Part shown: positions 3,091-60,582 of the stretch, piece by piece | How the letters are laid out: each line of letters starts with the position of its first letter | Position numbering within the stretch: the first letter of the stretch is position 1 | DNA from: Antedon mediterranea | Lineage: Eukaryota; Animalia; Echinodermata | DNA: 64,000 nucleotides | Direction of reading: 5' to 3' | NCBI RefSeq assembly: GCF_964355755.1 | Contig: NC_092677.1 | Span: 5,602,101-5,666,100 of the forward strand | The notes under the pieces: model-generated | What the model saw: the letters and a program-made list of their open reading frames with translations, nothing else | The model's database searches: none | Told to the model about the DNA's origin: nothing | Program-made: the position numbers and the translations under genes

Positions 3091-3123
3091 AATAATAAAC
3101 ATATTTGTTTATTGATCCGCTAG

Positions 3124-12649: not shown

Positions 12650-22532
<9,883 letters not shown>

Positions 22533-29324: not shown

Positions 29325-32300
29325 TTACAGCATAGTTTTCACTCCATAATTGCTTTTGACGGTCAGCGTGGCAGATCCTTTGAATAGTTTCATCTGAAAC
29401 GCCCTCATAACTTTACACACGTACTTGCCATCATCTGCCTTGCTGACGTCATTAATGAACAGAGTACATCTTCCATTATCTTCCAACTCCGTGTAATACT
29501 TGCTGCCTGGTTTAGTGACGTCAGTTGTCGAGGCTATGACGGTGCCGTTAAATTTACCATGCTGGTTGTTTCGGTACCACATAACTCCGGTAATTTCCTC
29601 ACCCGGTGGTAGGATTCTGCACTCAATATAGGTACTTCTGTCCCCAACCATTGCCGTCTGATTATATACATGAACTGTTAGGTTACCTGAAAAATAGAAC
29701 CTTTATTCAGTAAGGTAGACACAATTGTATGCAGTTCTGTTGTAATTAATTGTCAGTAGTCAGTCCTATGACAAACAGTATGTAAAATATGCATTTGTCG
29801 TCAAGCTCTGGAGAATCAATTTTTCAATCTTTTTTTGCGACTATGAGACTGTATTTTGTATGTACACATACCTTCTATTAAACAAGAGACAGAGGAAAGG
29901 GACTAATAATACTGTGTGTCTACATGAAAAAAATAGTCTAAGTTTAACTGAATATGTTTAATTCACGTGTAGACTAGGCCTACACGTGACAAACATAGTC
30001 CTTAATAATATGTGTCTCCTAAATGTAAACATATTAATTTGTATTTACAGTTAACAGTAAGAGTCCCCATTCCACTTGCTGCTGCACCGCTGTCGTACTC
30101 TTCCTCCTCACTGTTTACAAAACAAGCATACTTCCCGCCGTCATCAACTTTAACATCCCGGATGATAAGTAAGCCCCTCCCTTTCTCTTCGTCTATAATT
30201 GCCTCGTACTTGGGGGTCCTTTGAACGTAGTCATCGTTGCTAGATGCAATAGCCTCTGTATAATTGTCGAATTTTCGAAACCAAGTGGTGGTCCTGATAG
30301 CGCTTGTTTTGGGGAATATTTCACAGACGATTGAACTACTTTCAGATGCTTCTTCTACCTGCACATTGCGAACATGTGCCACAAGTTTCGCTGAAACAGA
30401 ATTCATACATTTAATATTTTAATTTGTACTAACAATTAAGTTTTTGAGAAAACATTGGTTTAGAAAACATTGGTTTAGAAAACGTACAGCCCAAATCTTC
30501 AACGAAAATAAAAAGAAGATTGGACAATCTTCTCATTCACTCCATCACAAAAACCCTGAAAAATAGTAGCTTTTTTTTAACAGACTCGGCGCATTAGATC
30601 GGATTGATCTTCGTAACACATACATTATTTTAAGATTCCCGAACAATTAAACTGCGTCTAAAGACTGAACTAAAAGATTATGATAAAAAGGATCGTAAAG
30701 AGTACAACCACAAGCCACCACCAGGTGACTACTGCCCTGTAGCAACTTCTACTTACGTTCGACAGAGAGCATAAAGCTTTTTACATGAGTTTCGTCATTT
30801 TTCATCAGAACTGTCAGTTTGTAGAGACCAGCATCATACGGGATCAAGTCATCAATTGTCAATTTGAAAGAACCCGGCTCTCCAAATTCCACAGCATATC
30901 GATTTAAATCTGGACAAAATAAAATCGGTTTAGAAAGTGTTTGTGTACTACACTTTACTTTACGCATTAGGCATTTCTTTAGAAACGTTTCAAATGCATC
31001 ATTCCTCCACTTCCGTTTATTTTTTCCATCAGTACAATATGCAATGTGTAAAGCTCTGTCTACACTATCAAAGTTTATGTGAAAAAACATGTAATAATAA
31101 TGATGATAACATAATGCTGTCATATCACTACCATATTTGGGCATATCACTACCATATTTGGCCACTTTACACTTTTTTTGTCAAATAAGTTTGATAGTGT
31201 AGACAGAGCTTTAAGAAACATCCATTTTACTGAATGATGGAAAACAACAACACTGATGAACAAATTCCTTTTTATTGTACTAAACAATCATTATCTAATT
31301 TTATTTCAAATATTTTTAAACATAAGTGGATTATCATACCTTTATTATCAGATTTCTTCAATGTACCTGACTGATAAAAATATGAAAATTAATTTTAAAC
31401 GTGATTTACTGTGCAAATCTTAGACAAACCTATTGTAGAGCCTGTTTCCTACTTCCCGAATTTATTTGCTCAAATCAATGACCAACATGTATTATAATTT
31501 CACCCACTTTTAGTGAAGCGAAACCAACTAGGAATGCTCGATTAGTGCGAATACATTCGCTTAGTGGAAAAAAGGTTTTAAGTTGAATCTTTATGAAGCA
31601 ATTTAGCAATATCATTATTTCATTTTCTTTTTATTGAGTAAAATGTGTTAATAGCTAAGGAAATAATGCACTACATAAAAATTACTGCAAGACACTTTTT
31701 GACAGAAAGTAAAGAACACAAAATGCATTATGTAGTTTTATCAGGGAAGAAATGAACTTACACAATTTTACTATGTTTTTTTTTAAAAGATATTTTAAAC
31801 ATTATGTAATATAATAAGAAAGTGTATATCGTGATGTAATATAAACAAATATGCTAAGGCGGAAAATACATAACAAAATATTGAAACTGTAATCAATGAT
31901 ATAGAAACTGAAATTTCATTATAATATTTAGATTAAATTATGTTTCGATAACACAGTATTAAAATCATAAAGATAATAGACGTCGATTATAATTACACTT
32001 ACTGTTTCGTATGGAATGTAATCATAGCCCTGCTGTTTATGTGCACTGGTGCTTTGATTATTGTCCTAAAACAATTGTACAGAAATATAAAAGTATGAAA
32101 AACAAGTGGTAAAACAAGGCAATATACCGACGACCGATCAACCGACCGACCGACATAGTGAGCTCTGCACACGACTAAAAAACTAAAAAGGTCCCGGGTA
32201 ATGCTTGGTTCCCACTATAGACGCAACACAATGCAACGTAAGTGATTTGACCAATCACAAGCAAAGGATTTCGTTGCCTCTACATCCCGCATTGCGTTTC

Positions 32301-35300
32301 TAGTGGGAACCGAACTTAAGGGATCATCTGGAGGATTGCTTTCCCTTACTCATGACAGCCTTGTCCATGGCGGGTCTAACCCTGTGTAAATGTGGCGTGA
32401 ACATTGACGGTACATGTACATAAACTTAGTGAAATAAAAATATATAACATAATAATAATAATCAAAAGGCTTGTGACGAAATGTAAGTAATTTGACCAAT
32501 CCGAAAGCGATGGATTATTCAAACTGTTGATTGAACGTCCTTGCTGTGCGTCTCTAGTGGGAACCAAGCTTAACTATGCATATAAATTAAATCTCATTTG
32601 AGGCTTAGGAAGTGGAGTAAAAACAGCCCTTTGCGCCAAAGTATGTTTTGTATTGCACCCTAACACTTGGTCAGGATTGAACCCTTGTTCTTAGGATTAG
32701 AAGGCAAGCAAAAACTCCAGTACTAATTTTTAATGCACAAAAAACAAAACTGTATATTTCCTGCAAAGTTTTAACATAAACAAATGAACAATATTTAAAA
32801 TATTGGATTATCCTTATTATTTGTTAAATCTATACTTTCAATTTGAACATTTTATTGATATAAAACCAGGCGATACATACCTTGATTTCGTCATAATTAT
32901 TATCCAGAATGAAGTAAGGTCTGACTAAATCATTGCTTGATCCATCCATTGGTCCAGAGTAAACGTTTCCTGACCCAATGGCTTTCATACGAGTTCTGAA
33001 ATAAAAAAAAAAGTTTTTTAAAAGTGTTCATGCTAACATTGTGCATTACTTTGTGAAAATCTCAAAGACAACATGTCTTACCGTTTAGCTTCTTTATTTG
33101 TTGTGATAAGGCCTACATTAAAAAAGAATGTATGAAAGTGATTTATTTATAATTGTATATACTAAAACTGGATGTTGAATAGACATATTTAAAAAAGGAA
33201 ATACATATTAATCGTTTAAAAAAATTAATAATGCGATTATTCAAAACTAGAATTATTTTCGAATATCCAGAGTCCAGCTATTTCTATGTGGAACGTCAAA
33301 CATGTACTCAATATTATCTTAGTTGTGTTAGGGTTAAGAATGTGTACGATTTCCAGAAATTGTTGATGTTGTCATCGATTATGATTGGTCAATTCTTTTG
33401 ATTTTGCACTAACTTATAAGACTCAAACTATACCTGTATTAAATGTGACAATGTGATCCGTTTTGTCCTCTTCTTTGTTGATTTTGAACCACGAGATACT
33501 GGCAATCTTGGCATTCATAGGTTCATAGGTCAACACAATGTTTGCTGAAGCACCTTCGTTGAATTCGAAGTCATCGTCAACAAATAGTTTGAACGGCAAT
33601 ATTTGTTTCTTAAATGCTGCACCTACAGGTATAAACAATAATAATACACAGTAAGTAATAATTAATAATGTCACTAATCAAACAACGTTAAGCTACATTC
33701 ACACGGTTCCATGTTGTTAGATAATGGAAAATAAATCATGTAAGGAGATAATTGAAGAGCCATTTTCCATTCCGTGTAAATGTAGCTTATAATACCACAC
33801 AACTAATCAACGAAATGTGATAAACAACATGTTTATTATTTATTGGAGGCCTATACATATTTCCTTTTTTAAAATTTCATTTAGGCCTACTTTTGTTCTA
33901 AAATTGGAAATTGTTTCATTAGATTATATTGGTCCTTTTAACTTTTGCTATTGGTCTTAGTTTCTTCTTACCTTTGAACATGAAACCCAAAGACATTCCA
34001 ATGATTATAACTACAACGAACACAGATATCCAAATCAAGATAAAGGTCTTCTTCCTATCCTTTTTATCAGAATCTATTAAAAAATAAAAATATATGTATA
34101 ATTTTGTACTATTTAATCATGGTGTTTTTGATGAGATATTTTAGTAATTTTATTTATACCAATGTATATACTGTGTATACTAAACTATACTGTAAAAGTT
34201 TGAAAATTAGCTAATATGCATATTTTACTTTTTTTATTTACTATAATTACAGGTGTAAGTAAATTCCAGAAAATAATGAAAAAGGTGAGGGTAATATAGA
34301 AAGATAATGGATATAATGTATAATATATTTGTGATATATGACGAACGAATAAAAGTTGTAGTTTACACCACAAAAGAGAGAGAATAAAAAAAAGTTTATT
34401 TGTAATGCAGTAACGAATATTGAAAAGAAGAAAAACCCAGAATGAATAGAAAGGAGAAACATATAAAGTGACAGTGCTGACAATTAATCATAGGGCTAAT
34501 AGGCCTAATATAAAAAAAAATAAAATAAGATACTATAATTCTCCGTTTATACTTACTAGATGAGTCCAGTCCTTCTATATTGCTCGTCTGGTTCATAATA
34601 CCTATACCTGTTTCAACACTAATACGACAGGAATAGTTTCCAACATCATCAGTTTCAGATAAAGTATGAATAATGAGCTTAATCCTAGGTTTTTCTTCAT
34701 GTTTCACAGTGTATTTGGACAAAGTGGTATCTAGTATATTTTCATTACGATACCATGTTACGTTTGGTTTCGTTTTGGGATTTATTTCAGACCACTGGCA
34801 GTAAAATATGTTGACATTTACATCGTTTCCAATTTTCTCGGTGGATGCAGTGAGAGTTGGCGTATCCATATCTTTAACAAAAATATCGACAAAATGACAT
34901 AGTAATAATTATTGTTTTTAAAGGAAGAAATCATTATTAATTAATACCTGCTAAATAGCCATTTAGCTGAGTCTATGTTTGGTATGAAATAGAACGGCAG
35001 TTGCAAGAAATAAACGTATAAACTTGATTAGTAGCCAGAGCTTTATGTTTATAATATAATATATATATAATGCACTGTATTATTATACGGAAATATAAAA
35101 TAACTCACAATATACATCCAGGTGATATGTCGTAATGACATCATTTTCCCCGCCACTTTCAACAACTTGAACAGTGTAATGTCCTGTATCCTCTCTGCTT
35201 ACATTTTTTATCCTCAAATCTCCATAGGGATCAACGATCGAAAATTTTGGAGATTTAGTTGTATTACCAGAATTAATGATAATTTGTTTAATATTTATTT

Positions 35301-35803
35301 TTTCATCTTTGAACCAACTTATCGATTGTATTTTGTCATTTCGAATACCACCTCCAGCAGGAATTGTGATTATTTCACCTTCAATTATTGACAGTTCTGA
35401 CTGTGTGGCTAGAAAAAAACAACAAAAAAACACAATACAATTTTACCATCTCATTTAGTCGTGTTCGTACTGTAACCTAAACGTAAAGCTAAGTAATACC
35501 ATACTTGTAGGCAGGTGTTTTATATGTACACAGATAATGATTATTAACAGAACAATAAGAGAAAACCCTTTTACTTATACTTGGTATAGTTGGGCTCTTT
35601 ATGCTTGTGATGTCTGATGTCTCAATTTTTAAGAGATTTTTAAGTATTTAATTAGTCCTATGACACTTGCAAGTGTTGCAGTATTGGAATAAGCAAGTCT
35701 ATCATCGGAACAATAACCACTGATGTTTATTAAACTTACCGATGGCATTTTCAATAAAAAACAGTAGGACGTATACGGACAGGAACACAAATTGTGCCAT
35801 CAT
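29325..35803 (-). CDS. Ig-superfamily type I receptor A (about 688 aa): SP-Ig-Ig-TM-[split Ig with Tyr-rich insert]-Ig-Ig
   Basis: Exons 35803-35740 (MMAQFVFLSVYVLLFFIENAI), 35408-35109 (Ig), 34871-34557 (Ig), 34073-33972 (TM FILIWISVFVVVIIIGMSLGFMF), 33622-33434 (Ig first half), 33112-33082, 32995-32881, 32065-32003, 31370-31340, 30909-30757 (Ig second half), 30390-30049 (Ig), 29686-29325 (Ig and stop). All introns GT-AG, all phases compatible, 2067 nt total. Confidence 0.8.
31050..31211. mobile_element. MITE with TIR aagctctgtctacactatcaaa
   Basis: Perfect inverted termini flanked by TA. A partial copy of the right end lies at about 7192-7253. Confidence 0.8.
32201..32571. mobile_element. 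Two MITE copies of the ggttcccactag family
   Basis: gcttggttcccacta...ctagtgggaacc (32201-32317) and a left-degenerate copy ending ctagtgggaaccaagctt (32571); internal tgaccaatcacaagc as at 1060. Confidence 0.7.
33690..33788. mobile_element. Short MITE
   Basis: TIR aagctacattcacacgg / ccgtgtaaatgtagctt flanked by TA. Confidence 0.6.
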
Positions 35804-37161
35804 CTAAAGAAAAGAAATATTAGTTTTACCAAGTTTATGACATTGACTGAATAATGTAATGTAATAGTAATACTTACAAATCCGATTTGACAGTGGTTAT
35901 AGGCCTACTTTTGTTATGTGGCATTTTAAACGTTTTTTTTTTTCGATTTAACTTCTCAATAATGGTACTTGAACGGGAAACATTGCAAAACCGGGAAGTT
36001 TGAAAATGTTAGTGGCCTTTCAACTAATATACCATCCTACTGTATACTGTAGACATACTCATATTATGATCCGTATGAATGAGACGTGCGTCAGCATCAA
36101 CATGGTAACTTGTACCACAAGAATTAACCAAATATTGGTATATTCTCGAGGGCATGAAACTGTAATTAAACTAGATTATTATTGAAACAGTAAAGTAATT
36201 TACACAAAAACGGTCATATAAGAAATAAATAATACTCACTACACCAAAATGCTTCTTGTATCAATGTAGAAAACACAATAACACGATAGTGAAAATAATC
36301 ATCGCCTACATTAAATCTTTATAACATAGTTTTATTTTCAGTTTCCATAATTGATTTTGCACGAATTAAATTAAAGCGTATTATCAAAAGTAATTTAATA
36401 TTTAATTTTCTTCCGGGTAGAAAAAATACCTGTTTTAACTAATATATTTTAGAACTACCATAAGTGTCAGAATTGTTTTAAACATGAATATTGGTGAAAC
36501 TACATCATGTACACAAATAAATGTATATACTCTTTTATTAAAACAAAATAAAACATTTATATTTTTTTTAAATATGCCTTTATTATCACATTGTCTACTT
36601 CGGTTTAGATAATTGCTGTTGTATTATTATTGTATTAACTTTATACAATTTAACATTTAAAAAGTTCATTACAGTAGTTTTACAACGACTGAATAATATA
36701 TTATTCTTAATGTCGTATGCTACTTATTTTCTATATTCTACGCGATACATTGTATTACGACTTCATTTTATCCTATACTATTTAAATACAACAATGACAA
36801 TAACACCAATTAGTGGCTGATAATAAATATTATAATTAGTATGCCTAAAACTAGAAATCACAGTTTATAAAAATTAGTGTATAAAGAAATTTTAAACTTG
36901 ACTGAAATGAAAAGTTGCGACGATAAGACAATTTTTAAATTGTTGTATTGCCATTGTGGTCGTGCGATGTAACGGCACATTATTATTCAAACTTGGTGTC
37001 TGTTAACACATAGGCCATTATATCTTTTTCGGCGTACTTAATAGAGTACACACTTCTAGAAATAGGTCTATTGTTTAAAAAAAAAAAATTCATTTTAAAC
37101 TAATTTTGTTCGGTTTTTATATGGTGTTAACATTTTACTTTTTCATCATTAAAATCCTAAT

Positions 37162-39290
37162 CTATTTAACCTTTTGACTACTACTATCATCAAGTAAAGC
37201 TATGCTCTCTGCATTACACATTTCTCTTTTTAGCTTAAATTCTTTCTTAGAAATCGGCTGCATTCCAATAGTATACTCCTTTGTTTCTGAACCATAACTG
37301 TAAACACACACTATTCCTTTTGCTTCTTCTTTCCCTTCTTTTATACTGTAGTAAGCTAGGTCAGATTCTTCTACATTCACTGCACCTAGTGTGTTAAACT
37401 GACACCAGGTTTTACAACCATCTTTATTCAAATAAAGTGTAAGCTCCTTATTTGTCTCATTTCCATGACTTGCCATTACTATTTGGTAGAACTCATCTGT
37501 TATTCTGTCTTTGTTGGTAAGCGTACAATACCACCCTTGATAATAATAAGAAAATATCATTATATAACTAGAATTGAGTTCGTCACTTTGACCAATTATA
37601 GATGATCATTTTATAATTTTACTTACATTAAGTTTAAAAAAACGATGCATGTACAGTACGTTAAAATACGACCACAAAATGTTGATGTATGCCATACTAT
37701 GAGATGACCTGATGCAAGTTTGTGTATAGTGAATTTAATTGATATTTGATGATGAATTATGGAGATATAATTGATAGTGTAATTTCACAAAATGGAGCAT
37801 AAATGACGTCATGGATGAGTGATCACGCTGAAAATACAGTATTTGAAAGATATTGTGAAATTTTGGTGATTATTGACATTTAAATCTTTGATTTAATTGT
37901 TACACAAAATACAGAGAAATAAAGAATAAAGATTTTATACATTAACAATAGGTGATCATTTTATTCTAACTGATCACCTAATAATTATGAAAATGCAAAA
38001 ACAAATCATTTCAAATGTCACAGGAAAGGAGTACCTGGCATTCTGGATTAGCTTCCAACATTGTTTTATTCCCAAAATCATGTATGAAATGCTTCATCAC
38101 TGTATACATGAAAACGTTGCTTAGAGTCCTCCAATGAACAGCTGATGTTAACTTTGTGCATACTCAACAGCCTGATAAAAAATCATATTATAGGCCAAAG
38201 TGGAATTTAAAGCTAACTAACATATGTGCTTACTGTGGGTTAAAAAAGTTGCTATATTAATACAAATCTAATCTTAAATAATCTATTATTTTCAAGATAG
38301 GCTTCTTAATCATACTTGTGTGTGTCCTCCTAAAGTATCATCAGGTGGTTGAACAGTGGTTACAATATTCCAGGTGTCATCATCATTAGTACTTGTTATC
38401 AGAAATACTTTTTCTGCGAAGCAATTTACATTAATTTATAATCATTTTAAATCAACTATTCATTAAACAGTATGTTGATTTATTGTTTGAAGGTTTGCAT
38501 GGCGAAATCAAATGTTGATATAAAGTTTGCGGTACACCACATGTATTAGTTCTGAAAAGAACTGTTGAGTTTCTCGACGTTTCGATCAATATACTTCGAT
38601 CGTCCTCGAGGAGGACGTGGTGAACCGCAAACTTTATATCAACAGTATGTTGATTATTTCTACTATTCAATGAATTATTAACCCAAACTTAGTATCTTAA
38701 TATTTTGATTATTCCAAAAAAACCAACAAAGAAAAACATTTTATGAATGTTTATGAAATAACTTACTTTCTATACTCTCAACATTTGTCCAACTCCAAAC
38801 TCCTGCAACAATCAAAAGCCTTGAATTTAAGCATGTACCATCACCAAGATCTAAAATAACATTTGATTGTTAGTATTGATTACCCTTTACAATAAATGTT
38901 TCATTATAAGAAAACGGAAATACTTAAATAAGAAGAAGACATATTTAAAAATTATTTTAAAGCAATTTAAATAAAAGACAAAAAATGTGTTATATTTAAT
39001 TAAATTACATTGTAAAAAAGTAATAACATAGACTTACTCCGACTAACTCCTGGAAAGCCTTTCAAATCAAATTGTACATCTTCTGGTTCTGTCCAGTTGG
39101 CACCATTATCACAGGTTTTCATCATTATTATATTCCTCTCTTTTGTGATATTATTTTGTGTAAAACACATTCAAATCAATTTTCCCTTTTTCTAATTTGT
39201 CATAACTGTTTTTAGAACATTATTCTTTTTTGTTAATATGTCACTTTTTGAAAAGATACATTGTATATTAAAAAAATACCAAGAAAATCT
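37162..39290 (-). pseudogene. Pseudogenised partial duplicate of the last five sialidase-like exons of receptor B
   Basis: Exon and intron similarity to 39920-41704. In-frame TAG and TGA plus a deleted acceptor region in the first duplicated exon (about 39038-39210), a frameshift in the exon at about 38035-38171, and a frameshift after GGIVRLPTK in the last exon. The FRRP-motif exons are not included. Confidence 0.85.
38481..38640 (-). mobile_element. Short Penelope-like insertion with a degenerate hammerhead motif
   Basis: Absent from the paralogous intron (about 41035). 15-bp direct repeat aacagtatgttgatt (38466-38480, 38641-38655); 28-bp inverted repeat (38513-38540 / 38617-38644); minus strand reads ctcgagga-c-gatc...gatc-gaaacgtc-gag. 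Confidence 0.65.
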
Positions 39291-39419
39291 AACTAAAAAA
39301 ATATCATAGAATATATTTCCTAAATACTGCTAATATCTAATATAGCTAAGCATTATTTATACTATTTATAATTTGTACATTCTATGCAACACATTCTATT
39401 ACAACGTATATCCAATATT

Positions 39420-39578
39420 TTTATATATATCCAAAGGAAAATTACTGAAAAAAAATCAGTGGCTGGATCTCAATGGAGATATAAAAAAAATCGACAAGCT
39501 AAATCAAAACGACAAAATTAAATAGCCAACAAACCTAGCAGTGCTTTTGGGCAACACTAGCCCTTCATCAGTGCAAGT
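39420..39578 (-). mobile_element. Penelope-like pseudo-LTR fragment with a mutated hammerhead
   Basis: Reverse-complement match to 44419-44590; minus strand reads gcactgatgaagggctagtgttgcccaaaagcactgc (GAAA changed to AAAA). Confidence 0.7.
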
Positions 39579-48100: not shown

Positions 48101-51100
48101 GTTTTACAAGGGAAGAGTGAAATTAAGTTTCACCAATCCACTATAAAATAAATGCAACCTTTTTAAACTAGCTTATAGGAATATGCAGTCGTTCCTGTAG
48201 TATAAATTAAAAGAAAATAGATGTGTTGTTACTTACTTGTATATGAACTTGATCTAAAAAAAAGAAGCAATATGAAAATAAATAAAATCAAGTAATTGCT
48301 TAACCAGAGTTGAAAGATAATCTATATTAGGCATAATAATTGAGTATTCATTAATTTCTGTTCCATTAAAATAGCGGTCATAAAATAAATAATTTTTATT
48401 CTGTTCACTATTATATACTAGAAAAAGATCTTTAAATATCAAATAAAATCAACTTATTCTTTCAAATCAAAATAAGGTAAACACATAACTTCTTAATTCC
48501 TTTTTTTTTGTAAAATGAAAACAGAATAAAAATAATAAAGCTCATTAAAAGGCTTTTTTTTTTTTTTTTGAAATATATATTTAAAAATAATTTGTTGTTG
48601 AAAAAGCCATGTTAAGGTCACATACAGGTTATTTATATTTATATTTCCTTGATAAACCGTAATTTAAAGAAAAGCAAATAGGCAACCAGAAGCCCATTTA
48701 TTTTAAATAAGCAAATTAATTTGACTTTTTTAAAATCAGCAAATTAATTTAAAAAAATTAAAACTGGAATATCTAAATTGGTGTGATTTAATTCATCGTT
48801 ATTGGTTATATTTTGTGGGACAATACATTTTTAAATATAAATAGTAGAGATTATGAATACAATACCAACAAATTGACACAGAAATATTATATCAATTTAT
48901 TATATTATATAAACATTGCAGCAAGCATCAATATTGATGCATGTTGCTCTAACCATTATTTGTGTAATTTGTTTGTAGACAGAACTAAATGTAAGCAAGC
49001 AATGAATGAAGGAAAACATTACAGTAGTACATGATGATATAAACAGCAACAAGAGTAAGCAGGAGAATATCTTAGAATCCAATGGTACATGATAAAAATA
49101 AATGCTAATAATAATATATGTATATAACAATAAATGCTAATGTAAATGCTATTTTACAAGCAACAGTAGATGATGAAAAGAAAAAAGGTATTGTAGGAGG
49201 CACAGTAGCAAGCAAATTAAACAGGCAACCCATAAGCCAAAGTTAAAGATAAATTATTCAAAATATGTTTTAGATTTAAAGTGCATCAAACCTGTGAATT
49301 AAAATACAATTGTAGCTTAATTCCGATTTGAATAATTTGTTTGTAAGAAGATATTGAACACTGATAAAAATTGGAAATCATTATTTATCTCCATTTTATG
49401 TTTTCGCACCAATTAATAATTGATTAATAGGCACACTTTTTAAAATCACATTCATTTTCATGCCGTGATTGAGAATTACACTATGCCATACAGTGCTCAC
49501 AGAATTTGAAGAAGGTTGCCTTCCAAATTCTTTGATGTCCTTTAGCGATAGCCAAATGAAAAAGAAATAACAAACTTGTAGACGAATATAATTTTGCAAT
49601 AAAATATATTACCACACATTCCACAAACCATTACCTTTTAGGTGAGTCATTTGCTAGGACAATAAAAAAATAAACAAAGAATACATTCAGTAAAGTTTTA
49701 AAAGTGACCAAGGTGTTTTGCAAAAGGTAATGACAAACTTATTTATTTCAGTTTCATCTTTTTTGCCTTAACACCAAAGCTACAGTATAATATAGAGTAA
49801 AGAAACGGTCTGCTTTAAGAAATAGAAATTCACAATTATTAATTAATATTAATTAAAACAATAAAAATACAATGAAAGATATGCAACAATATAATTATGA
49901 TTATTATGTATAAATATGCTTTACTCTGTAATAAGGACAAATACTTTCCTCAATTTGTAATTTGTTTTGTTGTATAATAAATTAGATTGTATTGTATCTT
50001 TAAAATGCATGTTTTTACTTCTTTCTTTTACTTTTTTACTATGTCAACATCATTATAGTTTACATAATGCAATGTAAAGCAATACAAAGAGTTAGACCTT
50101 TATTTTGTTTAAATTGTCACATTCTTTGAAATACCAAGTATCTGACAACATTTAGACTGGAACTCAAGTTCAAGTCTTTTAGCAAAAATGGCAACTGTAA
50201 CCTTTAACATTCAAAAGTCTACAAATAAATGGTTTTTAACAAAAAAATATGCAAAGAACAGAATATTTTTTCTTTTTATCTAGCTTTTAGTGTATAAGTT
50301 TTGCTTGAAGTTCCATGAACATACAAATCCAAGCTAAATACAGATACCACAACTGACCTAGTCATACCTACTGTACTTACGAATCTCAGCTCACAAGTCA
50401 CATATGTCTTAATGATTCAAATAAGACTGAAGATTTTAATATTTTTAATATTTTTATTTTTTTGGTTTAAAAAGATATATTGCCCACCTAAACAATTTTT
50501 ATTTTTTTATATTTTGTTGTTGAATGTATGCCATTTTAATTTCACATAGTTATTCACTTTGACTAAAAATTGGATCACCAAAAAATGATTTACCTTTAAA
50601 AAACTGTAATTTAAATTTAATTGTTTATTTATTTTTTTTTTTACAAGTGAAATCAGTATGTTTGTTGTTTTTTTTCCTATGGAAGTGAACAACATTAAAA
50701 CTGCAAAATCTGGTTTATTAATCTTTATTTTTCATTATTTGGGTGACAATACATCTTTAAAAAAAAGCAGAAAAAAGATGCTGAAAAAAATGTCTAAAAC
50801 CCATGTGTGTAGATGTAAGACTAGATCAAGAATAACGACTTTACTGTCATACGTGCCCATGCATTTTTTCAAAATTATACTTATATTTAGAATTTATTAT
50901 CAACAAACATTATGCTTGACCAATTTTTAAGAGCTGAAGAATGGGTTAGCTTGAACTAATAACTACTGAAGGTACAATTATGATGACTTCATTTGCAATA
51001 CCTAGGTTTGTCATATACTGCACAGCAAACTTCCTATGTACACAAACCCAGCACAAGTGCTTACAAGAATATTTCCAAACTCAACAACCAGTTATTGGTA

Positions 51101-54100
51101 GTTCAACGAGATCAACCAAGATATTTTCAGTCTGCTTAATATTTTATTTACATCACATGGTGAGAATCTTGTTGAATGTTATTAATGTATCATATCTTCT
51201 GCATGTGGTCTTGGACAGCATGTGATTAATAAAATGGCCATTTGTTTTTTTTATAGTAAAATTAAATGCATTTTTGCTTTTTTTAAAGTATTTTGTTTTA
51301 CCTTTAGGATGTAGCACTCCTTCTGATAATTCAAAATAAGAAGTTTGTGCTTCGGTTCTTTTTATTTTCTTAGATGTACTGGGACGTAAATCGAGATCAA
51401 CATATTTTATCTCTTTCTATAAATAATTAAAATAGATAACTACATAAACATAACAAATGACACCTGTTAAATACATTCATTGTTCAACAAGGTACTTTCT
51501 TCAATTGGTCGGATTGAAAATATTGTTATTTTTGCAACAATTGGTTTTGTTAGATTATCAGCAATCAAATGTTTCTACATCTAAGTGTACTGTATAAACT
51601 TACAGGTTTCACAGATTCAGGTAGTATTTTTTTATCTTTTCCAGATATTCCTATGATGACAAAATATCAACTTTACATAAAATTGAAAACACTATATTTG
51701 GTTTTTTTAAAAAGATCAATAATGCTAGATCTCAAATTGAACCAAATCTAAGAGCAGTGATTATTATTAAGTTTTACTTGTTCTATTTCAAAACAAAAAA
51801 AATGGTTTAAAAGTTATGATCTTAAAATTTAAGTAACCACAAGTAAAAGGTGTGACATTATAGTACCATAATAGTGTTGTGGTTAATTGCAAAAATCCAA
51901 AAATTGCACAATATTGTAATAGAAAGGTTAACATTATTTTAAAAAAATCATCCGCAACTACTGTACTAACAATTTTAATTATAGCAAAAAACAAAGCAAA
52001 AACTTTAAAAAAAATTGTTTTAAATGATATCACCAGTAGGGTTTCTGCCATGTCCTAAATCCGCATAAGTGACGGGTTTATCTTTCTTCTGTGAAAATAT
52101 TTAAATTACATAAATTTGGAATCGGAAATCATTTTGGAAATAAATCATAAATTTCAAAGGTTTCATTTGTTTCTATTTATGGTTTAGAGACTATCACAAA
52201 TTGTAAACAAAAGTGATTTAATAAATAATATTGATTTCTTTACATTTTTCAAATTTAACTACATAAAACTGATTTCTTTTATAAAGCTTTTAAAGTAAAA
52301 CAATTTCTTACTGTAATACTTCTGCCAATGCGTCTTCCTTAATAATTAAATAAAGAAGATAGTATAATTTAATAAGAACAAAGTATTTTAATCTTAGTAT
52401 AAAATAATACTGTTTAACATTTTCAGTGAACAATTCACATAAAAAGTCCCCAGCATTTCAATAGTGCTGCAGTACTTTATTCACGGGAGGTACCAACCAA
52501 GAAAGAAATTGCTTGGCCTTTCTCTTTTTCATTTCATTTCATTTATTTATTTGACCAACAAAACATAATATACAATGTACAAAGATGAATTGGTCAGGGA
52601 CTGCTAAAGTAATACGATTACTGTAACTACAAGAGTCAGCAGTCCAATGATCTTAACTAAAATATATAATTTTATGAACAAATAAAGTAAAAAGCTGTGA
52701 GTATACAACAAAAAAAAGAACAAAAATGATATACAAAAAAGTTGAATAAAATAGTATTAGTATTTTAGTTACATTTTTAATTAAGTTCAGAAGAAAACAC
52801 TGTATTCTGGTAGATCTTGTGTAATGTAGCATCTACTGTAAATAGTAACAAAATATAATATGTACATCTTGAAGTTGTTGCCACTTTGATTTTCCTTAGT
52901 GAGCAAGACACAACACACTAGAGCCTAACACTTTAGTAGAATAATACAGTAGATATGAAAACCATTGTTCTATATGAGCATAGGTGTAGATGTTTCTTAT
53001 CTAGTTTTAAATAATACACTGTTCTTCTGTTTTATTGCTGTACAGTAGGTAACTATGAGTTTTACAACATGACTGCTAAGCAGTAATCAAGCACTTACTG
53101 AATATTGTTTTTATTATTTACTGTGGAAGGGTAGATATTTTCGGGATGGTAATGTACACTATAAAACATCACACTACATACTACATTCACAAAATTAAAT
53201 GGTCAATAAATGCAAGATCTAAGAATTAAGATTCAATTAAAAATTCCTATTTGGACTGTTTATCTTTCTTATACCAGCAGCTTAAAGCTGAACAGAGATT
53301 AATGGTTAGGTTTACAGTACCTTCATATTCAGCATTTCCACCAGATGTTCCTTGATGTTCTGCTAAATGTTCTTCATCTTCATCATCAGGATTTATCTTT
53401 GAAATAAAACATTTTTAATGCAGTTCAGGCTGATGCTAGCAAGAAATTTTCTTTGCCAAAATATCAAAAAGTTAGAAAATTGTTTATCCTGACAATAGAA
53501 ATAATAATAAACATGACCAACCTCAAACCTTTGTCCGGATATAGCAGAGATTGTTATTGGCTGTTGTTGGCTATGTGAACTTGATGTGATGAAAACTTCT
53601 GTTTCATTGTCCATCATCTGATACTCTTCACCACTTCTAATACCACAGTACATATGACAAATACAAATTAAAATTAAACTACAGCATGGACCTTTGGAGC
53701 GTCTTTCATGAAAGTTCATATTTAAACAAATCTGTGTTGCATTTAAAAAATTGGTTATTGATCTCTAAAGATTTCAAATTATTTCTATTTAATGTATAAA
53801 CGTTACTAAACTCACCTGTTTCCATGTCTCTTATCTTTATTTTTGTATCTAACTATTAAATAAACATAACAGATATTTGACCAGAAACAAACAAAACAAT
53901 TATCTCTTATGAAGTGAATTAATGTATAGTATTAATATTGTACATATGAATGTTATTATTAGTAAACATACCCTAGTAAAGTACAATAATGAACATTTTT
54001 ACTTTGAGCAATTGTATGTCACATGAATTTCCGTATGGACAAATAAAATGAACTATGAACTATGAACTATAATTGCAACAATTCACTCAACATTTTAAAC

Positions 54101-57100
54101 TATTTTTTAGCCCATCAGCAACCAATCAGATATAGAGGGCAGTGTTACTGAAATTGGCTGATAAAATACAAAAAATAACACACATACAGTGCAATACATT
54201 TTAAATAGTCATTCCATTTACAACCCTGAATGTTCAACATATGATTCATCTATTGAATTAAAGATGTATTGTTCCTTGAAACACAAAAAATGAAGGTCAA
54301 AATATTCTAAATTTAAATTGGGTATATCAAAGTAATATTAAAGTTAGTAAAAAATTCGAGCCAAAAACAACAAGTTTACGTAATTAACAGGTAAAATTTG
54401 ATTACATTTCGTCTGGAAAATCGTTGCTAGCGAAAGTAAACTAAGATTTCAAACCACAAGTATGCATTATGCATTGCTAATTTGTTTTCAACTCGTCACG
54501 GTTGAGAAGGTGTTTTCACACAGATCGGGAGGAAGTTTATGATTATGCATACAGAGTAGCCAAACAAATCGTGTTGCATTATGGGATATATTTTGATCGA
54601 AAACTTTGACTGGAAGTAAAAAAAACGTCTGTATTTCAGATAAATGATTTTTTGGTGAACGTTAATAACTATTATGATACTTCAAAATGACCCACCTTTT
54701 TTCGAAATCTTTTTTTTTTTTTTTTTTTTAAATTAGTCAAAGGGACAATACATCTAAAGGGACAATACATAAAAAGAAAGTAATTAACTAATTATCATAT
54801 GAAACTATCATAAAAACTCACAGGGAATGTCCCATTTTCTGCCTAGTCTATTAACAAAAAATGTAGTGTTTTCCCACCGACACTACAGTGAAATACAAAT
54901 TTGTTTTGCAATGAGAATATTCATATCCGCAATGAGGAAAACTTCATATTAGACAGACTGGTAATCATTAATAAAGTTATCTAATGTACTATATATAAAT
55001 GATATCATTAATAGTAGTAGATAACTATATTTATGATTATCATAGATATTTTAAAAATAATAAAAAGATATTACTTACATGATTTGATGCAGTATTCAAC
55101 ACAAAAAAATCCACAAAAGTAAAGGCAGCAATAACAGACAAACTGACAGACTGTTTTCCAACTACTGAATTGCTGTTGATTTGAACCAATCACCTTGTCT
55201 TCTTTTTTTATTTCAACCGTCTTGAACCTTGCAATACTTGGACGGTATTTAAAACTCATCTCAACTGGTTTACCACCTTCAACTGTCACTGTATTAATAT
55301 CTGTATTGCTCCACTCAATATTCTTGTAATACATAAAATCTAAAAATAAAAATTTAAACAATCTTACCCATAAAAAAAAAATTAATACAATCATATAAAT
55401 AAATTATTTGCTGAACAGAATACTATATTAAATACAATACCGTATTTATTCATAAAATTAATAAATTTAACAATCTCATTTGTCGCTAAGGGCCTGTTTG
55501 GACAAACAGTAATTGAATATGTAAGATTGACGCATGCGGCGAATACATCTTGGCCAAGGGAATAAAAAGTGCAAACAATTAACTACTAACTTTACCGTGT
55601 ATTTCAAAAACTAGCGAACAAGATTTGTTTTGATAGTCTTCACCTCTACACCATACATTATTGTACATTCCTATCCTGACAAACTATTCAAAACTTTCTA
55701 TATAAAAGTCAAAGATAGTAAGGTCTCGGGTCCATTCTGCAGTTGCCACAGATTGACTTCTTCATCAGTACTTCTATGAATGGATGATTAGTTGGGAACA
55801 TGAACGCTAGTTAATCATACCCAGTACCGTTTTGATCGTATGATCATTCGGGAAAACACCTCACAATGCTGCGAAGGTACATCATCATTAAAGCAAATTA
55901 AACTCATATTGTCAAGTTAGGCAATGGCAGCTACAGTATATCGGCTGAATTATCGTTATACATAATTCGGTCTCAATTTGTAAGGTTGATCACAAAAAAA
56001 CGACAGAAAATAGTAGTAGTTTATGGAAGATCATGACGGCAGTGGTACCGTCGCATGTGGGATAAAACTGGAATTATAACACAGTACAATTTTGACTGGT
56101 GGTCATATGAAATATGACTTTGACAACGTAAAATTTTTAACGTTTAATGTGTAAACTTGTCTAGCACATATAAAAGCCAAAGGTTGAGAACACTTGATTT
56201 GATCCAATTAAAAATAACCAATAAAGGAACTGAAAGTGAAATAGTTTCAAAGATAATCTCAATGTGCATGCTATTCAATTGATAATAATATTAAATAAAT
56301 TAATAATTCAGGGAAAAGATGCTTTACTTACAAACAAGGAGCAGTAACCATAGGAACAGACAAACAACAATCAAAGCAATCAGGATGATATAGAATGATC
56401 CTGGACCTGCTGGAATAATAATTCAGTATTTTCCAATTATTATTATTATTATATTTATATATGTATCATTTTTTTGTAGAATCAGTTACAAATAATTTAA
56501 AAACCTGTATTTATCAATTTTTAAAATTCAGATGAAATACTGTGACTGTCACTGTCAAGTAAACGTTGTGGCTGTACCAATATACAGTTTGCTGATTTTA
56601 TTAGATCATGCTGATATGCCGCAATGATTATAATAATGTGGCCATGGCAACAGACAAAATAAACATTTTACTATAGCCTGCAATTCTATTTGTTTTGAGA
56701 TTGCCATATACAAAATTTCTATATCAGTTCCTTGTTTTTAGGACCCAAGTGGAAATAAGTTTTTAACTTTTCTTGGCATTCCTTGTAATCAAGGCCTGTG
56801 TTTCTGTGCAATTGTTTTTTCTACTTTTTTTTTTGCATTGTTTTTATTGTTTTTTAACCTTGATTACTAAATAAAGAAATTCAAATTCAAATTAAAAAAA
56901 CTTACTCAATTTTAGTATGGTAAATAAGTACATAAGTGGGTTTGAGTCCCACACAGAAATTACTGCACTTGCATATATTTCCGCAAGTATTCTCAATGTA
57001 CTTAGTATAAAGTACAAATTACGTCAGAGTAGGGCAAAACATTATTTATTATTTGTTTGTTGTTATTTAAAAAATACACAATCAACACTTGTTTTGCACT

Positions 57101-60100
57101 GTTAGTGAAACATCTATAAAGCTAACAAAAACATGAATTGAAACAAAGTATAAATTAAAACAAAAGCATAATTTTAAAAATAAAATAAAAATGTATAAAG
57201 AACACTGCATCGATACTACCACAATAATATCAAAATTGAAACCTGTCATAAGAAAACATAATATTGTCAATCATGACAATTTTAATGACTGTATTGTTTT
57301 TTAATACATAAAATTTGTTAACCAGCACTATTGTTAAACTGATTAAAAACGAAGTTGTAACATCTTTAAATGTATTTTTCTTCTTCTTTCTTATCTATGG
57401 TGAACTTGCATCTTAATAAATAGTATGGGAAATTTCTAATCTTTTTTTAGCCCTTAGGTGAAAGTGAATTAAAATGGCTTTCAAAAAATGAATTATTGAA
57501 TTACCTTTTCAGTGGGACAATCTTTAAATTTAAAGCAGGTTTTTTTTAGATCATGACGGCAGGTACGGTCGCATGTGGAAAAAACTGGAATTATAACACA
57601 GTACAATTTTGACTGGGGGTCATTGAAATATGACCTTGACAATGTAAATTCCTTTGAGTTTACTGTGTAAACTTGACTAGCACATATAAAAGCCAAGGTT
57701 GAGAAAACTTGATTTGATCAAATTAAAAATAAACAATAAAGGAACTTGAAAGTGAAATAGTTTCAAAGAAAATTTCTAATCTTTTTTTAGCCCATTTAGG
57801 TGAAAGTGAATTAAAATGGCTTTCAAAAAATGACTTATTGAATCACCTATTCAGTGGGACAATCTTTAATTTAAAAGCAGGTTTTTTATGTTACCCCTAA
57901 TTATTATATTGCTGTGAACAAAGCTCCTATTTCTATGAACTTATGAGTCACTGTAGCTTTGTGAATGAAATTAAAGCATATCTCCACAAAATAAGAAAAG
58001 GAAACTTAATTTGCCAATGGTTCATTGCAAATACAAAAACAACTGAGTTTCAATAAGACATAAAAACAAAACAAAAATTGATTTCTAGCCAAATTATCAA
58101 GGACATTTTGTTTTTATATATTTTTGAGAAATGTTCAAGAATAATCTAATCATATGTTCATCACTAATAACTACACAAAAACAACAGTTCCAATCAGACA
58201 TAAAAACAAAACTTGATTTCTAGCCAAATTATCAAGGAAGTTTTGTTTTTTATTTTTTGGGAAATTTCCAAATACCGTAATCATAAGCGATTGCCTTTAC
58301 TATTCTTCTTAAAGGTGGCAATCCTGATCAAAATTCATTAACAATGGAAAAAAAACAGCTACAGTACACATTCTATTCTCTCGTATTACCCACTAGTTCA
58401 GACTACCTGCACTTTTATGCCCGACGATACATCATCAAAAGCATATTGATTGAAATATCTACATACATGCTGTACATGGTGTACCACAAACTTTATAGCA
58501 ACATATTCTCTCTATTCATAAAGGCTTTTGCAACAATTCACTATTTGCCCCAATCGTAAGAAAAGTTTCATTGTTTGTGTCTTATTGGATTGCATTTCTG
58601 CTGACAGGATGTTAGGTCATTGTATTACGTCTAAATAAACATAATGCAAAGGATAATAAGCAGGATATCCGTACATTAAAACTAAGAAACAGTTTAAATA
58701 ACAATTTAAGTTTATACAATGTTAAATTTAGTATAATTACCGACATTACAGTTTTCTAGTGTTGTTGTCTCATTAAGCCTTGCATTCTCTGCATAGCAAG
58801 TAAGAATTGATTGACATATCTCAATTTTTATAGTTGTTGTATTTTCTTCGTTCTCAGCCACTTTTCCATCTTGTAATATCAATACTAATGATGGCTTGGG
58901 ATGGCCATCTGCTGTACATGTTGCAATACCATCTTCAGATGTAAAAGTAACAGTGATATCTAAATGAAAAATATCAGTTAATTTCAATTTAATGTGATAT
59001 GTTTTAATTAAATTTTGCGATACACCATGATATGTAGTTCTAAAAAATTTAGTTTTTCGACGCTACGATCATTTTAGAAGTGAGGTGTTGTCCTGAGGAT
59101 GGAAACTTTGAGAAACTCAACCATTTTTTTAGACATACGTGTAAACTGCAAACTTATATAACATATTGATTTTTGCCATGTTGGATATGGTGAATGAGGT
59201 AGAAAATCACTGAACCTAGTTGTGTAGCTTGGCTAGTACTAATAGAGATAGGATCATACTCATTTGAATGAATCAAAATACGAATATTAACATCCACATT
59301 GTATTAAAAATGGGAATATTTCCATGGATTGAAAATTCAATTAATTAGACAAAAAATCATTTTTTATGGTTTACATACAATATACTATCAAGTGTTTTCC
59401 TTCACTTGTTTTAGCATTCTCTCCTTTAAACTGATCACTTTCTGCTTTACATGTATAATTCCCAGCATCTTCTTCAGTAGCTGATTTAATCTTAAGAACC
59501 GACTCTGTACTGTTATTTGCAATCTCATATCTAGAAGGGTTGTTGGTGTTGACTGTCTGTCCATCCTTATACCAAGTAATGTGAGGAATAGGATCACCAT
59601 CAGGTATACTACAGGTAAAGGTCACTAATTGACCTTCGTAGATAGTACTTTCTGAGGCAATAAGAAGTGGTTGATCCAAGTCTGAGGTAAACAATTAAAT
59701 GCAAGAAAATATGCAACATTATTCTTAGCAGTAAACTATAAACCACTATTAATATTATCAAACACTTCTTTAAATCACTTTCAGAGGTTTATACAATTCT
59801 AATACGTTTGGGAACATTTATCTATGCTACATTGATTTGCCAGATGATTTGTTATTTCTTTAAATATAAAAAATGATTTTCTATTTGAAACACAACAAAA
59901 TAATCACTACATATTTTATTTACACATATGATATAATAATTATATTGAAATAGTGTGTTTACTTACAATATACAGTTAGAATAGATGGATTTGATTGTTC
60001 AGTATATCCATCATTTTTACGTATCTCACAGTGAAATATTTTTTTAGAATCACCTCTCATTGGCTGTGAAATCCCCAAGTCAGCTTTTCTAGGTGTTATG

Positions 60101-60582
60101 TTCAATGTAAAACGTCCATTGTTTAACTTCTTATCATTTACAAGGTTTGAATTGATGATGAATCCATCTTCATTTAGTTCATCCCATTGTATTACATCAG
60201 GTGCAGTAGTAAATTGTGAATAATCACAAGTCATCACCACTTCAGCATCACCTTCCTTGGCTGTCTGGTTGGCTGCTGTCACCAACTGACAATGTGCTTC
60301 TGCAAATTAAACATACAAACGTGTTATAACCCTTTTAAAATGCCAGAGAGAATAATGATCCTAAATTGTGTAACCATGTGAGATGCAAAATACAAAATTG
60401 TAGGCTGATGTAAACATTGTAGTGGTCGTTAATAAACCACTAGGGTAAGTGATTAATTAAGATGGAAACATTTTAAGAAATACTGTATTTAACTTTAATC
60501 AAAGCAGCTTACCTTTTATAGTAATATCCAGTAATATTACTACAGCTACAAAAGACTGAAATAATAAACAAGAAATATTCAT
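39920..60582 (-). CDS. Ig-superfamily type I receptor B (about 1326 aa): SP-Ig-Ig-Ig-TM-[split Ig with ITIM-bearing insert]-Ig-Ig-Ig-pseudo-sialidase
   Basis: Exons 60582-60513 (MNISCLLFQSFVAVVILLDITIK), 60299-59967, 59681-59379, 58959-58741 (3 Ig), 56409-56332 (TM FYIILIALIVVCLFLWLLLLV), 55339-55079 (Ig first half and Cys-rich stretch). Small exons 54842-54822, 53852-53816, 53636-53522, 53396-53321, 52337-52312, 52088-52034, 51650-51604, 51416-51302, 49653-49635, 49539-49501, 48253-48237. Then 47970-47839 (Ig second half), 47546-47235, 43441-43148, 42811-42470 (Ig), and 42195-42150, 41940-41788, 41620-41433, 41253-41170, 40974-40877, 40751-40605, 40273-39920 (sialidase fold). Total 3981 nt, in frame if the damaged exon at 46178 is skipped. 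The smallest exons are tentative. Confidence 0.7.
43148..43441 (-). CDS. Ig-domain exon absent from the ORF track
   Basis: Phase 1-1 exon: DPVSNTVYSVAGSTARINFCISKQIEEFSLYKFESDDWKKIADTNRFKFEYSKKNQTYFLTISNVDISDTGDYRCGFVKEEKDSVTYSSTSRLEVIEG. Confidence 0.88.
44291..44615 (+). mobile_element. Penelope-like element fragment in a (TA)n tract
   Basis: Contains the hammerhead, matches 39420-39578 in reverse, and is flanked by duplicated aacaaatataatatatatatatataaatat (about 44261-44290 and 44618-44647). Confidence 0.65.
44422..44458 (+). ncRNA. Minimal type I hammerhead ribozyme motif (Penelope-associated)
   Basis: gca-CTGATGA-a-gggc-tagtgtt-gccc-GAA-AGCT-C-tgc: intact core, 4-bp stem II, palindromic AGCT in place of stem III, and gca/tgc stem I. 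Confidence 0.8.
45778..46178 (-). pseudogene. Damaged Ig exon inside receptor B (in-frame TGA, no donor site)
   Basis: Phase-1 acceptor at 46178; AALKMEIPDVTTNEG*KYVELFLNITY...IKWYK...LEIRNIKSEDEGIYICEVE; TGA at 46134-46132; no GT after the G strand (GMLLVE). Confidence 0.75.
50473..50756. mobile_element. Kolobok-like non-autonomous element
   Basis: agatatattgcccacc ... gggtgacaatacatct followed by TTAA. Confidence 0.55.
54262..54755. mobile_element. Kolobok-like non-autonomous element
   Basis: TTAA-agatgtattgttcc ... gggacaatacatct; the right end is locally duplicated. Confidence 0.6.
56029..57890. repeat. Direct repeats flanking the TM exon of receptor B
   Basis: About 220-bp block gatcatgacggcag...gaaatagtttcaaaga at 56029-56251 and 57549-57769; about 115-bp block aaatttctaatctttttttagccc... 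at about 57430 and 57770. Confidence 0.8.

What the first reader, a model, noticed from the sequence alone, without database searches (positions are those of the whole stretch)
29325..60582. Two tandem Ig receptors with Ig domains on both sides of the membrane
Seen in sequence: both minus-strand genes splice in frame from signal peptide through 2-3 Ig exons and a single TM exon directly into further Ig exons (3 in gene A; 4 plus a damaged one in gene B), with no second signal peptide or stop in between. Established: IgSF receptors such as CD2, SIRP, Siglec and PECAM have Ig domains only outside the cell and largely unstructured tails; intracellular Ig domains are typical of titin- or MyBP-like soluble proteins. 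Inference: this is a receptor family with folded cytoplasmic Ig arrays. The same layout in two very divergent paralogs argues against a chance mis-join. I know of no described family with this layout but cannot search for one.
Basis: partly seen in the sequence, partly recalled or inferred. Interest (0 to 1): 0.9.

Follow-up and report, generated by a model that had tools for sequence, protein, structure and literature searches.

The report
Feather-star receptors with inside Ig arrays
Two real feather-star genes encode membrane proteins with antibody-type (Ig) domains before and after the membrane helix; the inner part likely sits in the cytoplasm, starts with an Ig domain split by a tyrosine-signal loop, and in one multi-gene family ends in a probably inactive sialidase-like domain, a receptor design for which I found no study.

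Summary
Real, and stranger than first described. Both genes are crinoid (RefSeq names: Antedon mediterranea). My exon models equal RefSeq proteins letter for letter (gene B whole; gene A from residue 214), and a spliced RNA-type contig joins gene A's last three exons. The exon after each TM is only half an Ig domain; 4 (A) or 9 (B) small exons encoding tyrosine motifs follow, then the other half. Gene A's layout is conserved in Anneissia. Gene B belongs to an Antedon family whose longest members run leader-Ig3-TM-split Ig-Ig2-5-sialidase-fold propeller lacking catalytic residues; here RefSeq ends gene B at a stop in the damaged exon. Cytoplasmic topology is likely, not shown: family B has a conserved Cys-rich hydrophobic run that could be a second TM, and RefSeq gives gene A no leader. 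Best reading: type I receptors whose membrane-proximal split Ig presents a phosphotyrosine loop, with a distal Ig/pseudo-sialidase scaffold. Ten paper searches found no description. The scan had not seen this family, but noted cytoplasmic Ig arrays in shark B7-H6 (unchecked), so Ig on both sides is probably not unprecedented.

The parts
61952..61960 (-). Gene B first coding exon (start codon in RefSeq)
   Evidence: model equals P0014
60513..60555 (-). Gene B signal-peptide exon (an in-frame ATG at 60582 is an alternative start)
58741..60299 (-). Gene B three pre-TM Ig exons (60299-59967, 59681-59379, 58959-58741)
56332..56409 (-). Gene B TM exon
   Evidence: KD 3.54
55079..55339 (-). Gene B first half of split Ig domain plus Cys-rich hydrophobic run (7 Cys in 23 aa)
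48237..53852 (-). Gene B nine small exons encoding the insert: YxxM (53636-53522), ITIM-consensus VTYADL (52088-52034) and IKYVDL, plus TSYFEL (51416-51302); four of the nine skipped in RefSeq isoform X3
47839..47970 (-). Gene B second half of split Ig domain
47235..47546 (-). Gene B whole post-TM Ig domain
   Evidence: Pfam V-set 2.5e-06
45778..46178 (-). Damaged Ig exon: in-frame stop near its start, no donor; end of the RefSeq protein
42470..43441 (-). Two intact Ig exons (43441-43148, 42811-42470) downstream of the damaged exon
39920..42195 (-). Seven exons of a sialidase-fold (BNR) domain, open and in frame with the preceding Ig exon
37162..39232 (-). Partial broken duplicate of the sialidase-like exons (stops, frameshifts)
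35740..35803 (-). Gene A signal-peptide exon (join to Ig2/TM inferred from phases; absent from RefSeq model)
34557..35408 (-). Gene A pre-TM Ig exons: V-type without the Cys pair (35408-35109) and C2/I-type (34871-34557)
33972..34073 (-). Gene A TM exon
   Evidence: KD 2.95
33434..33622 (-). Gene A first half of split Ig domain
31340..33112 (-). Gene A four small exons encoding the 81-aa insert with YFIL, YDEI, YDYI
30757..30909 (-). Gene A second half of split Ig domain
29325..30390 (-). Gene A two whole post-TM V-type Ig exons (30390-30049, 29686-29325, stop)

Best explanation
Both genes encode crinoid membrane proteins with Ig domains before and after one strong TM helix; they are likely type I receptors whose post-TM part is cytoplasmic, where a split, membrane-proximal Ig domain would loop out a tyrosine-motif segment for SH2-type signalling and the distal Ig array (plus, in family B, a probably inactive sialidase propeller) would serve as a docking scaffold. 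SHOWN: exon chains and RefSeq identity; split of the first post-TM Ig between profile positions about 50-55; tyrosine motifs in the insert; family architecture; sialidase fold of the last domain in a predicted model. INFERRED: leader join in gene A; cytoplasmic side; that the Cys-rich run of family B is an S-acylated helix lying on the inner leaflet, not a TM; phosphorylation and recruitment of PI3K-type (YxxM) or SHP-type (ITIM consensus) partners; loss of sialidase activity; an immune or cell-recognition role.
For: Split domain: a profile built from 47 whole Ig domains matches first halves at positions about 6-55 and second halves at about 40-106 in both genes; against 500 shuffles, 4 of 6 first halves and 3 of 3 second halves were never reached, one first half was reached 4 times; halves joined in silico score as one domain (A 39.8 bits, B 29.8 bits). 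The Atlas model of gene A aligns 114-133 residues spanning both halves to V-set domains. Two-chain fold of gene B's halves: weak support, 0.34 against best control 0.02; that mark was reached by 51 of 78 solved and 2 of 108 mismatched pairs, at 0.60 or under by only 5 of the 78 and all 4 passing mismatches; contacts agree at least 75%, partner pLDDT at least 56; likeness to solved Ig folds can explain it. Halves that fold together must lie on one side, which argues against a TM between them. Inside signs: 2 ITIM-consensus motifs after the Cys run in gene B (0.24 expected, p 0.02), 3 Yxx[LIVM] in gene A's insert (0.93 expected, p 0.04), matching motifs in both Anneissia proteins; YxxM in 4 of 6 family-B members (YxxM as PI3K site: PMC11599192 passages); 3-6 basic residues follow the Cys run in all 9 family-B proteins that have it; its uncharged span is only 15 residues in 6 of 6; rough insertion energy +0.7 to +1.8 versus -6 to -7.8 for TM1 (recalled scale). 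N-glycan sequons 2.1-3.6 per 100 aa before the TM in 5 of 7 proteins versus 0.65-1.2 after; none of 11 post-TM parts exceeds shuffles. Lone core Cys in 10 of 35 post-TM and 0 of 12 pre-TM whole domains. Gene A has no second hydrophobic run; Anneissia XP_033126120.1 keeps Ig-TM-first half; outside Ig 34% versus post-TM parts 59-69% identical to Anneissia. Sialidase fold: Z 21.0, rmsd 3.9, 303 aligned to human cytosolic NEU2, tied with bacterial sialidases; Pfam BNR_2 above cut-off in 6 of 8 proteins scanned.
Against: No topology experiment or dedicated predictor was available. The Cys-rich run scores KD 1.75-2.0, above the usual 1.6 line, in all 9 family-B proteins that have it. 25 of 35 post-TM whole domains keep both canonical Cys. 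Family-B first halves are only weakly Ig-like (3.2-10.2 bits; one of four not above shuffles). Both RefSeq models of the gene A front end lack a leader, and five basic residues precede gene A's TM against three after. My AlphaFold2 models left the split domains under pLDDT 50. ITIM-bearing exons are in gene B only, not in the aligned paralogs; YxxM alone is not above chance (p 0.12). Paralogs are not independent samples.
Confidence: 0.6

Rival explanations
1. Family B is double-pass: the Cys-rich run is a second TM, so the later Ig domains and the sialidase-like propeller are extracellular (a two-headed surface lectin or adhesion protein) with only a 55-residue loop inside.
For: KD 1.75-2.0 and strong conservation of the run (that exon 75-86% identical among paralogs); modelled as a helix (low confidence); most post-TM domains keep the Cys pair; sialidase folds are often secreted (own knowledge).
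Against: It would separate the two Ig halves and put YxxM and ITIM-consensus motifs and a basic cluster outside; only 15 uncharged residues, 6-7 of 23 Cys; gene A has the same split without such a run.
Confidence: 0.15
2. Gene A is made without its leader, as a type II signal-anchor protein with its Ig domains outside, and the upstream leader-Ig1 exons give a separate short secreted product.
For: RefSeq starts at an internal Met; a stronger acceptor at 34794 would stop leader-Ig1 at residue 124 and leave exactly that Met as first in frame; basic cluster before the TM; the Anneissia model also lacks a leader.
Against: The 34871 acceptor keeps a full open frame; the whole second Ig domain with both Cys is conserved upstream of the TM in Anneissia; conserved tyrosine motifs would face outward; the Anneissia locus appears split into two partial models.
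Confidence: 0.12
3. The post-TM Ig array and propeller are cytoplasmic but do not signal; they are a structural tether (titin/obscurin-like) linking an adhesion receptor to the cytoskeleton, and the tyrosine motifs are sorting signals.
For: Fold and sequence matches of post-TM domains include titin and obscurin among many generic Ig proteins; Yxx-hydrophobic motifs also serve endocytosis (own knowledge); an intracellular Ig domain is reported to bind actin and fidgetin in a sea cucumber receptor (PMC13133943 passages).
Against: Alternative splicing toggles exactly the ITIM-bearing exons; fast-changing ectodomain and gene-family expansion look like immune receptors. The two readings are not exclusive.
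Confidence: 0.1
4. The long models are annotation read-through joining a short-tailed receptor to a downstream soluble Ig-sialidase gene.
For: Five RefSeq models (P0002, P0003, P0010, P0011, P0013) start at or after the insert with no TM; gene B here is cut by a stop.
Against: The break would fall inside one Ig domain; TM-to-Ig joins recur in gene B isoforms and 5 paralogous clusters on two contigs; no leader after the TM; contig 1 of run X1 carries 96 unlisted letters before the second-half exon, close to the 94 of the two preceding small exons.
Confidence: 0.03

Closest known systems
ITIM/YxxM-bearing type I IgSF receptors (SIRP, Siglec, PECAM, LILRB, CD28 family)
   Same: Leader, V/C2 Ig ectodomain, one strong TM, tyrosine motifs encoded by small exons after the TM, multigene expansion.
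   Different: Their tails are unfolded (own knowledge); here the motifs sit in an insert inside a folded Ig domain, followed by 1-5 more Ig domains and often a propeller.
Non-mammalian B7-H6 (NCR3LG1) with cytoplasmic Ig arrays (earlier scan notes e1-8584054, e1-8583871, e1-8807352; unchecked; Flajnik 2012 paper not held)
   Same: Ig domains on both sides of one TM, array of several inside.
   Different: Those notes describe C1-type or disulfide-less vertebrate domains; here post-TM domains score best as V-set with no C1-set hit, the first is split, and no vertebrate relative was found.
AjNLR-new of sea cucumber (PMC13133943, passages read)
   Same: Echinoderm membrane receptor with an Ig domain claimed to be intracellular and to bind cytoskeletal proteins.
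   Different: Two TMs around the Ig region and a NACHT domain; no Ig ectodomain, no split Ig, no sialidase fold.
GH33 sialidases, including human cytosolic NEU2 (1snt)
   Same: Six-blade propeller fold (Z 21.0, rmsd 3.9, 303 aligned), Asp boxes, N-terminal R-x-P motif.
   Different: About 16% identity; conserved Glu and second Arg replaced by His and Ser in the alignment to NanJ; fused behind a receptor.
A published invertebrate receptor family with a cytoplasmic Ig domain and tyrosine motifs ('cyIG'/'YYcoR'; name recalled, may be wrong)
   Same: If my recollection is right, TM followed by a cytoplasmic Ig domain with tyrosine motifs.
   Different: Not found; I could not compare. If it exists it would lower the novelty of the split-Ig part, not of the sialidase fusion.

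Membership tests
Type I IgSF signalling receptors (SIRP/Siglec/PECAM/LILR-like) | Signal peptide joined to Ig ectodomain | tested here: met
   Gene B RefSeq isoforms and paralogs P0008, P0009, P0012; gene A inferred from phases only
Type I IgSF signalling receptors (SIRP/Siglec/PECAM/LILR-like) | Exactly one TM helix | tested here: inconclusive
   One in gene A; marginal Cys-rich second run in family B
Type I IgSF signalling receptors (SIRP/Siglec/PECAM/LILR-like) | Tyrosine-based motifs after the TM | tested here: met
Type I IgSF signalling receptors (SIRP/Siglec/PECAM/LILR-like) | Short, unfolded tail | tested here: not met
   Whole Ig domains after the TM
Type I IgSF signalling receptors (SIRP/Siglec/PECAM/LILR-like) | Phosphorylation and SH2 recruitment | not testable with these tools
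   needs cells
B7-H6 (NCR3LG1) of non-mammals | C1-type Ig domains (as in the earlier notes) | tested here: not met
   Post-TM exons score as V-set; no C1-set hit among them
B7-H6 (NCR3LG1) of non-mammals | Orthology or synteny with NCR3LG1 | not testable with these tools
   no genome held; no vertebrate hit
GH33 sialidases | Six-blade propeller with Asp boxes | tested here: met
   (model mean pLDDT 44, about 55-80 in the first part of the propeller)
GH33 sialidases | First Arg of the triad (RIP-type motif; role recalled) | tested here: met
   R-x-P-A-V in 7 of 7 paralogs with the domain and in the window
GH33 sialidases | Catalytic Glu and second Arg (roles recalled) | tested here: not met
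   Aligned to His and Ser in the profile-to-NanJ alignment
GH33 sialidases | Tyr nucleophile near the C-terminus | tested here: inconclusive
   Not covered by the tool alignment; the motif reads EESDL in 6 of 7 paralogs and the window, where a recalled consensus has Tyr before SDL
Titin/obscurin-type soluble Ig chains | No leader, no TM | tested here: not met
   the 'obscurin-like' name of P0002 is an automatic label on a model without TM
Recalled 'cyIG/YYcoR' family | Published definition | not testable with these tools
   no such paper

The most novel reading that the evidence does not exclude
A new receptor design: a cytoplasmic Ig domain used as a clamp that holds a variable, alternatively spliced, lipid-anchored phosphotyrosine loop next to the membrane, followed by an Ig stalk that carries a catalytically dead sialidase propeller into the cytosol as a glycan or protein sensor, so that one protein senses on both sides of the membrane.
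Probability: 0.22. Interest if true: 0.9.

Novelty: new variant of a known kind. Interest (0 to 1): 0.72.

Why it matters
Ig receptors are taught as folded outside and unfolded inside. A conserved crinoid gene and an expanded family with folded inner Ig arrays, a signalling loop nested within an Ig domain and a pseudo-sialidase tail would add a second, invertebrate origin of that layout beside non-mammalian B7-H6, show how tyrosine-motif tails can be built into a domain, and offer a testable entry to immune signalling in the earliest-branching living echinoderm class. Even the main rival (a double-pass Ig/pseudo-sialidase surface protein) would be an undescribed architecture.

Tried and rejected
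No whole genome held. Word-indexed search with gene A's TM-to-second-half region found only itself (1 of 422 candidates). Profile search of TM plus first half over 1.84 billion representatives: 11 hits, 6 input-family proteins, 1 Anneissia protein, 4 long prokaryote-type repeat proteins dropped as spurious; no relative outside crinoids at this sensitivity, which does not show absence. Atlas feature searches gave only generic Ig clusters under 0.9. AlphaFold2 with 3- and 13-row alignments did not resolve the split domains; Foldseek of model 1 gave generic multi-Ig hits. Domain tree (29 rows) has unsupported deep nodes: one origin of post-TM domains neither shown nor excluded. hhalign of A and B first halves: no detectable homology. 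Single-sequence PDB searches missed or barely found sialidases; one search used a mis-set threshold and is void. NCBIfam: nothing relevant. Ten paper searches found no paper on this family; PMC11999971 and PMC12227049 (passages) mention no such layout; two B7-H6/NKp30 papers were not held. No supplements were read. Subscription journals are mostly outside the library.
Full report
1. What is there. The window is AT-rich animal DNA. Splice-site scanning and manual exon building on the minus strand gave two genes. Protein searches with single exons returned RefSeq proteins named Antedon mediterranea at 100% identity. Gene A (35803-29325, 12 exons, 688 aa) equals XP_071958507.1 from residue 214 on. 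Gene B (61960-46131, 19 exons) equals XP_071958880.1, and without four small exons XP_071958882.1. RefSeq models are predictions; that they list isoforms differing by one residue or by exons of 26-115 bases suggests transcript support (own knowledge of the pipeline, not checked). In run X1, guessed to be RNA, one 1,078-base contig joins 30909-30757, 30390-30045 and 29682-29321 end to end, and a 378-base contig holds exactly 33624-33433 with 13 and 173 further letters on its sides; DNA-type run X2 has contigs that run through introns.

2. The first post-TM domain is split. The exon after each TM has no Pfam hit; a later short exon hits only the C-terminal part of V-set. A profile from 47 whole Ig domains of these proteins places first halves at positions about 6-55 and second halves at about 40-106. 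Against 500 shuffles each, 4 of 6 first halves and 3 of 3 second halves were never matched, P0007's was matched 4 times and P0012's 54 times; joined halves score 39.8 (A), 29.8 (B) and 30.3 bits (P0007) over most of the profile. The Atlas model of gene A aligns to V-set domains across both halves (114-133 residues). Folding gene B's halves as two chains gave weak support (0.34, best control 0.02; see counts under evidence; likeness to known Ig folds may drive it). My AlphaFold2 runs did not resolve it. A paralog shows a repeat inserted at the same place in another Ig domain (P0016), so this loop tolerates long inserts. Inserts are 81 aa in A and 116-197 aa in family B.

3. The insert carries tyrosine motifs. 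Gene A has three Yxx[LIVM] (0.93 expected, p 0.04), and both Anneissia proteins carry matching ones; gene B has two ITIM-consensus motifs (0.24 expected, p 0.02), in exons that isoform X3 skips. YxxM follows the Cys-rich run in 4 of 6 family members, though one YxxM is not above chance (p 0.12). The ITIM exons have no counterpart in the aligned paralogs.

4. Families. Gene A has counterparts in Anneissia japonica: XP_033126120.1 (Ig-TM-first half) and XP_033126110.1 (insert-second half-Ig-Ig), on contigs of the same length, probably one gene split in two models (inference). Identity to Antedon is 34% for the outer Ig and 59-69% for the four post-TM parts. Gene B's search returned 10 Antedon clusters among 201 candidates, on three contigs; three full-length ones read leader-Ig3-TM-split Ig-Ig2 to 5-BNR domain, others have fewer outer Ig or lack the BNR domain. 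The last domain has the sialidase fold (Z 21.3-19 to sialidases, 21.0 to human NEU2, rmsd 3.9, 303 aligned; all 19 PDB profile hits are sialidases or BNR proteins). It keeps the first arginine motif but has His and Ser where NanJ has the conserved Glu and Arg (catalytic roles recalled), so it is probably inactive. In this window the Ig exon at 46178 has an early stop and no donor; skipping it gives a 1,300-aa frame to the end of the propeller. A broken partial copy of the propeller exons follows. No relative outside crinoids was found.

5. Topology, the open question. For inside: halves that fold together must share a side; tyrosine motifs and a basic cluster follow the Cys-rich run; the run has only 15 uncharged residues with 6-7 Cys in 23 and a rough insertion energy far worse than TM1 (recalled scale); glycan sequons are denser before than after the TM, with 2 of 7 pre-TM and 0 of 11 post-TM parts above shuffles; 10 of 35 post-TM but 0 of 12 pre-TM whole domains have a lone core Cys; no leader exon after either TM. 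Against: the run passes a Kyte-Doolittle threshold in all 9 family-B proteins that have it; 25 of 35 post-TM domains keep both Cys; both RefSeq front ends of gene A lack a leader, and a cryptic acceptor at 34794 would explain the RefSeq start and cut the leader off. Paralogs are not independent. I put an inside location at about 0.7 and the full signalling reading at 0.6.

6. How it likely works. Ligand binding by the fast-changing ectodomain would cluster the receptor; the split Ig would hold the insert as a loop near the inner leaflet, in family B tacked down by S-acylated cysteines; kinases would phosphorylate its tyrosines and recruit SH2 proteins, with splicing setting the inhibitory content; the distal Ig array and dead propeller would dock further partners. 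All of these steps are inferred.

7. Relation to what is known. It works like an ITIM/YxxM IgSF receptor but fails the unfolded-tail feature; it is not B7-H6, titin or an active sialidase (membership table). Ten searches found no paper on the family (listings only). I read passages of PMC13133943 (intracellular Ig claimed in a sea-cucumber NLR), PMC11599192 (YxxM as PI3K site), PMC11999971 and PMC12227049 (no such layout in the passages found). Earlier scan notes describe cytoplasmic Ig arrays in shark B7-H6 (not checked here). I also recall, without a source, a published invertebrate family named for a cytoplasmic Ig domain. Homology between genes A and B beyond shared layout and exon phases is not shown. 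Verdict: new variant of a known kind, interest 0.72.

Noticed in passing
window 3099-8762 (+): Receptor tyrosine kinase gene: FN3-like exon, TM exon and kinase exons (Pfam PK_Tyr_Ser-Thr in 2 exons tested).
   Followed up: partly
window 12635-22532 (+): Membrane-anchored aspartyl protease, beta-secretase-like by motif (label recalled); Pfam Asp hit for 17046-17303, TM-like last exon at 22245-22532.
   Followed up: partly
window 37162-39232 (-): Partial, broken tandem duplicate of the sialidase-like exons; it contains a repeat insertion near 38500-38630 with high depth in both runs.
   Followed up: partly
run X1 record 5, laid on window 41432-41600 and 38034-38157: A 1,118-base contig with 11 and 7 differences matches sialidase-like exons, so a paralog or allele of the propeller is in that run; 613 letters precede the laid part.
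   Followed up: no
P0016 residues 528-696 (XP_071957667.1): A second split Ig domain, interrupted at the same loop by a 9-residue Ser/Pro/Thr repeat.
   Followed up: partly
P0002, P0003, P0010, P0011, P0013: RefSeq models without leader or TM that start at or after the insert: truncated models or soluble cytosolic isoforms.
   Followed up: no
window 8915-9692, 18861-19559, 27767-29033: Tandem repeat arrays with periods 107, 21 and 85-285 bases.
   Followed up: no
window 35408-35109 (-): Gene A's first outer Ig domain lacks both canonical Cys, like CD2/CEA-type N domains (comparison recalled).
   Followed up: no
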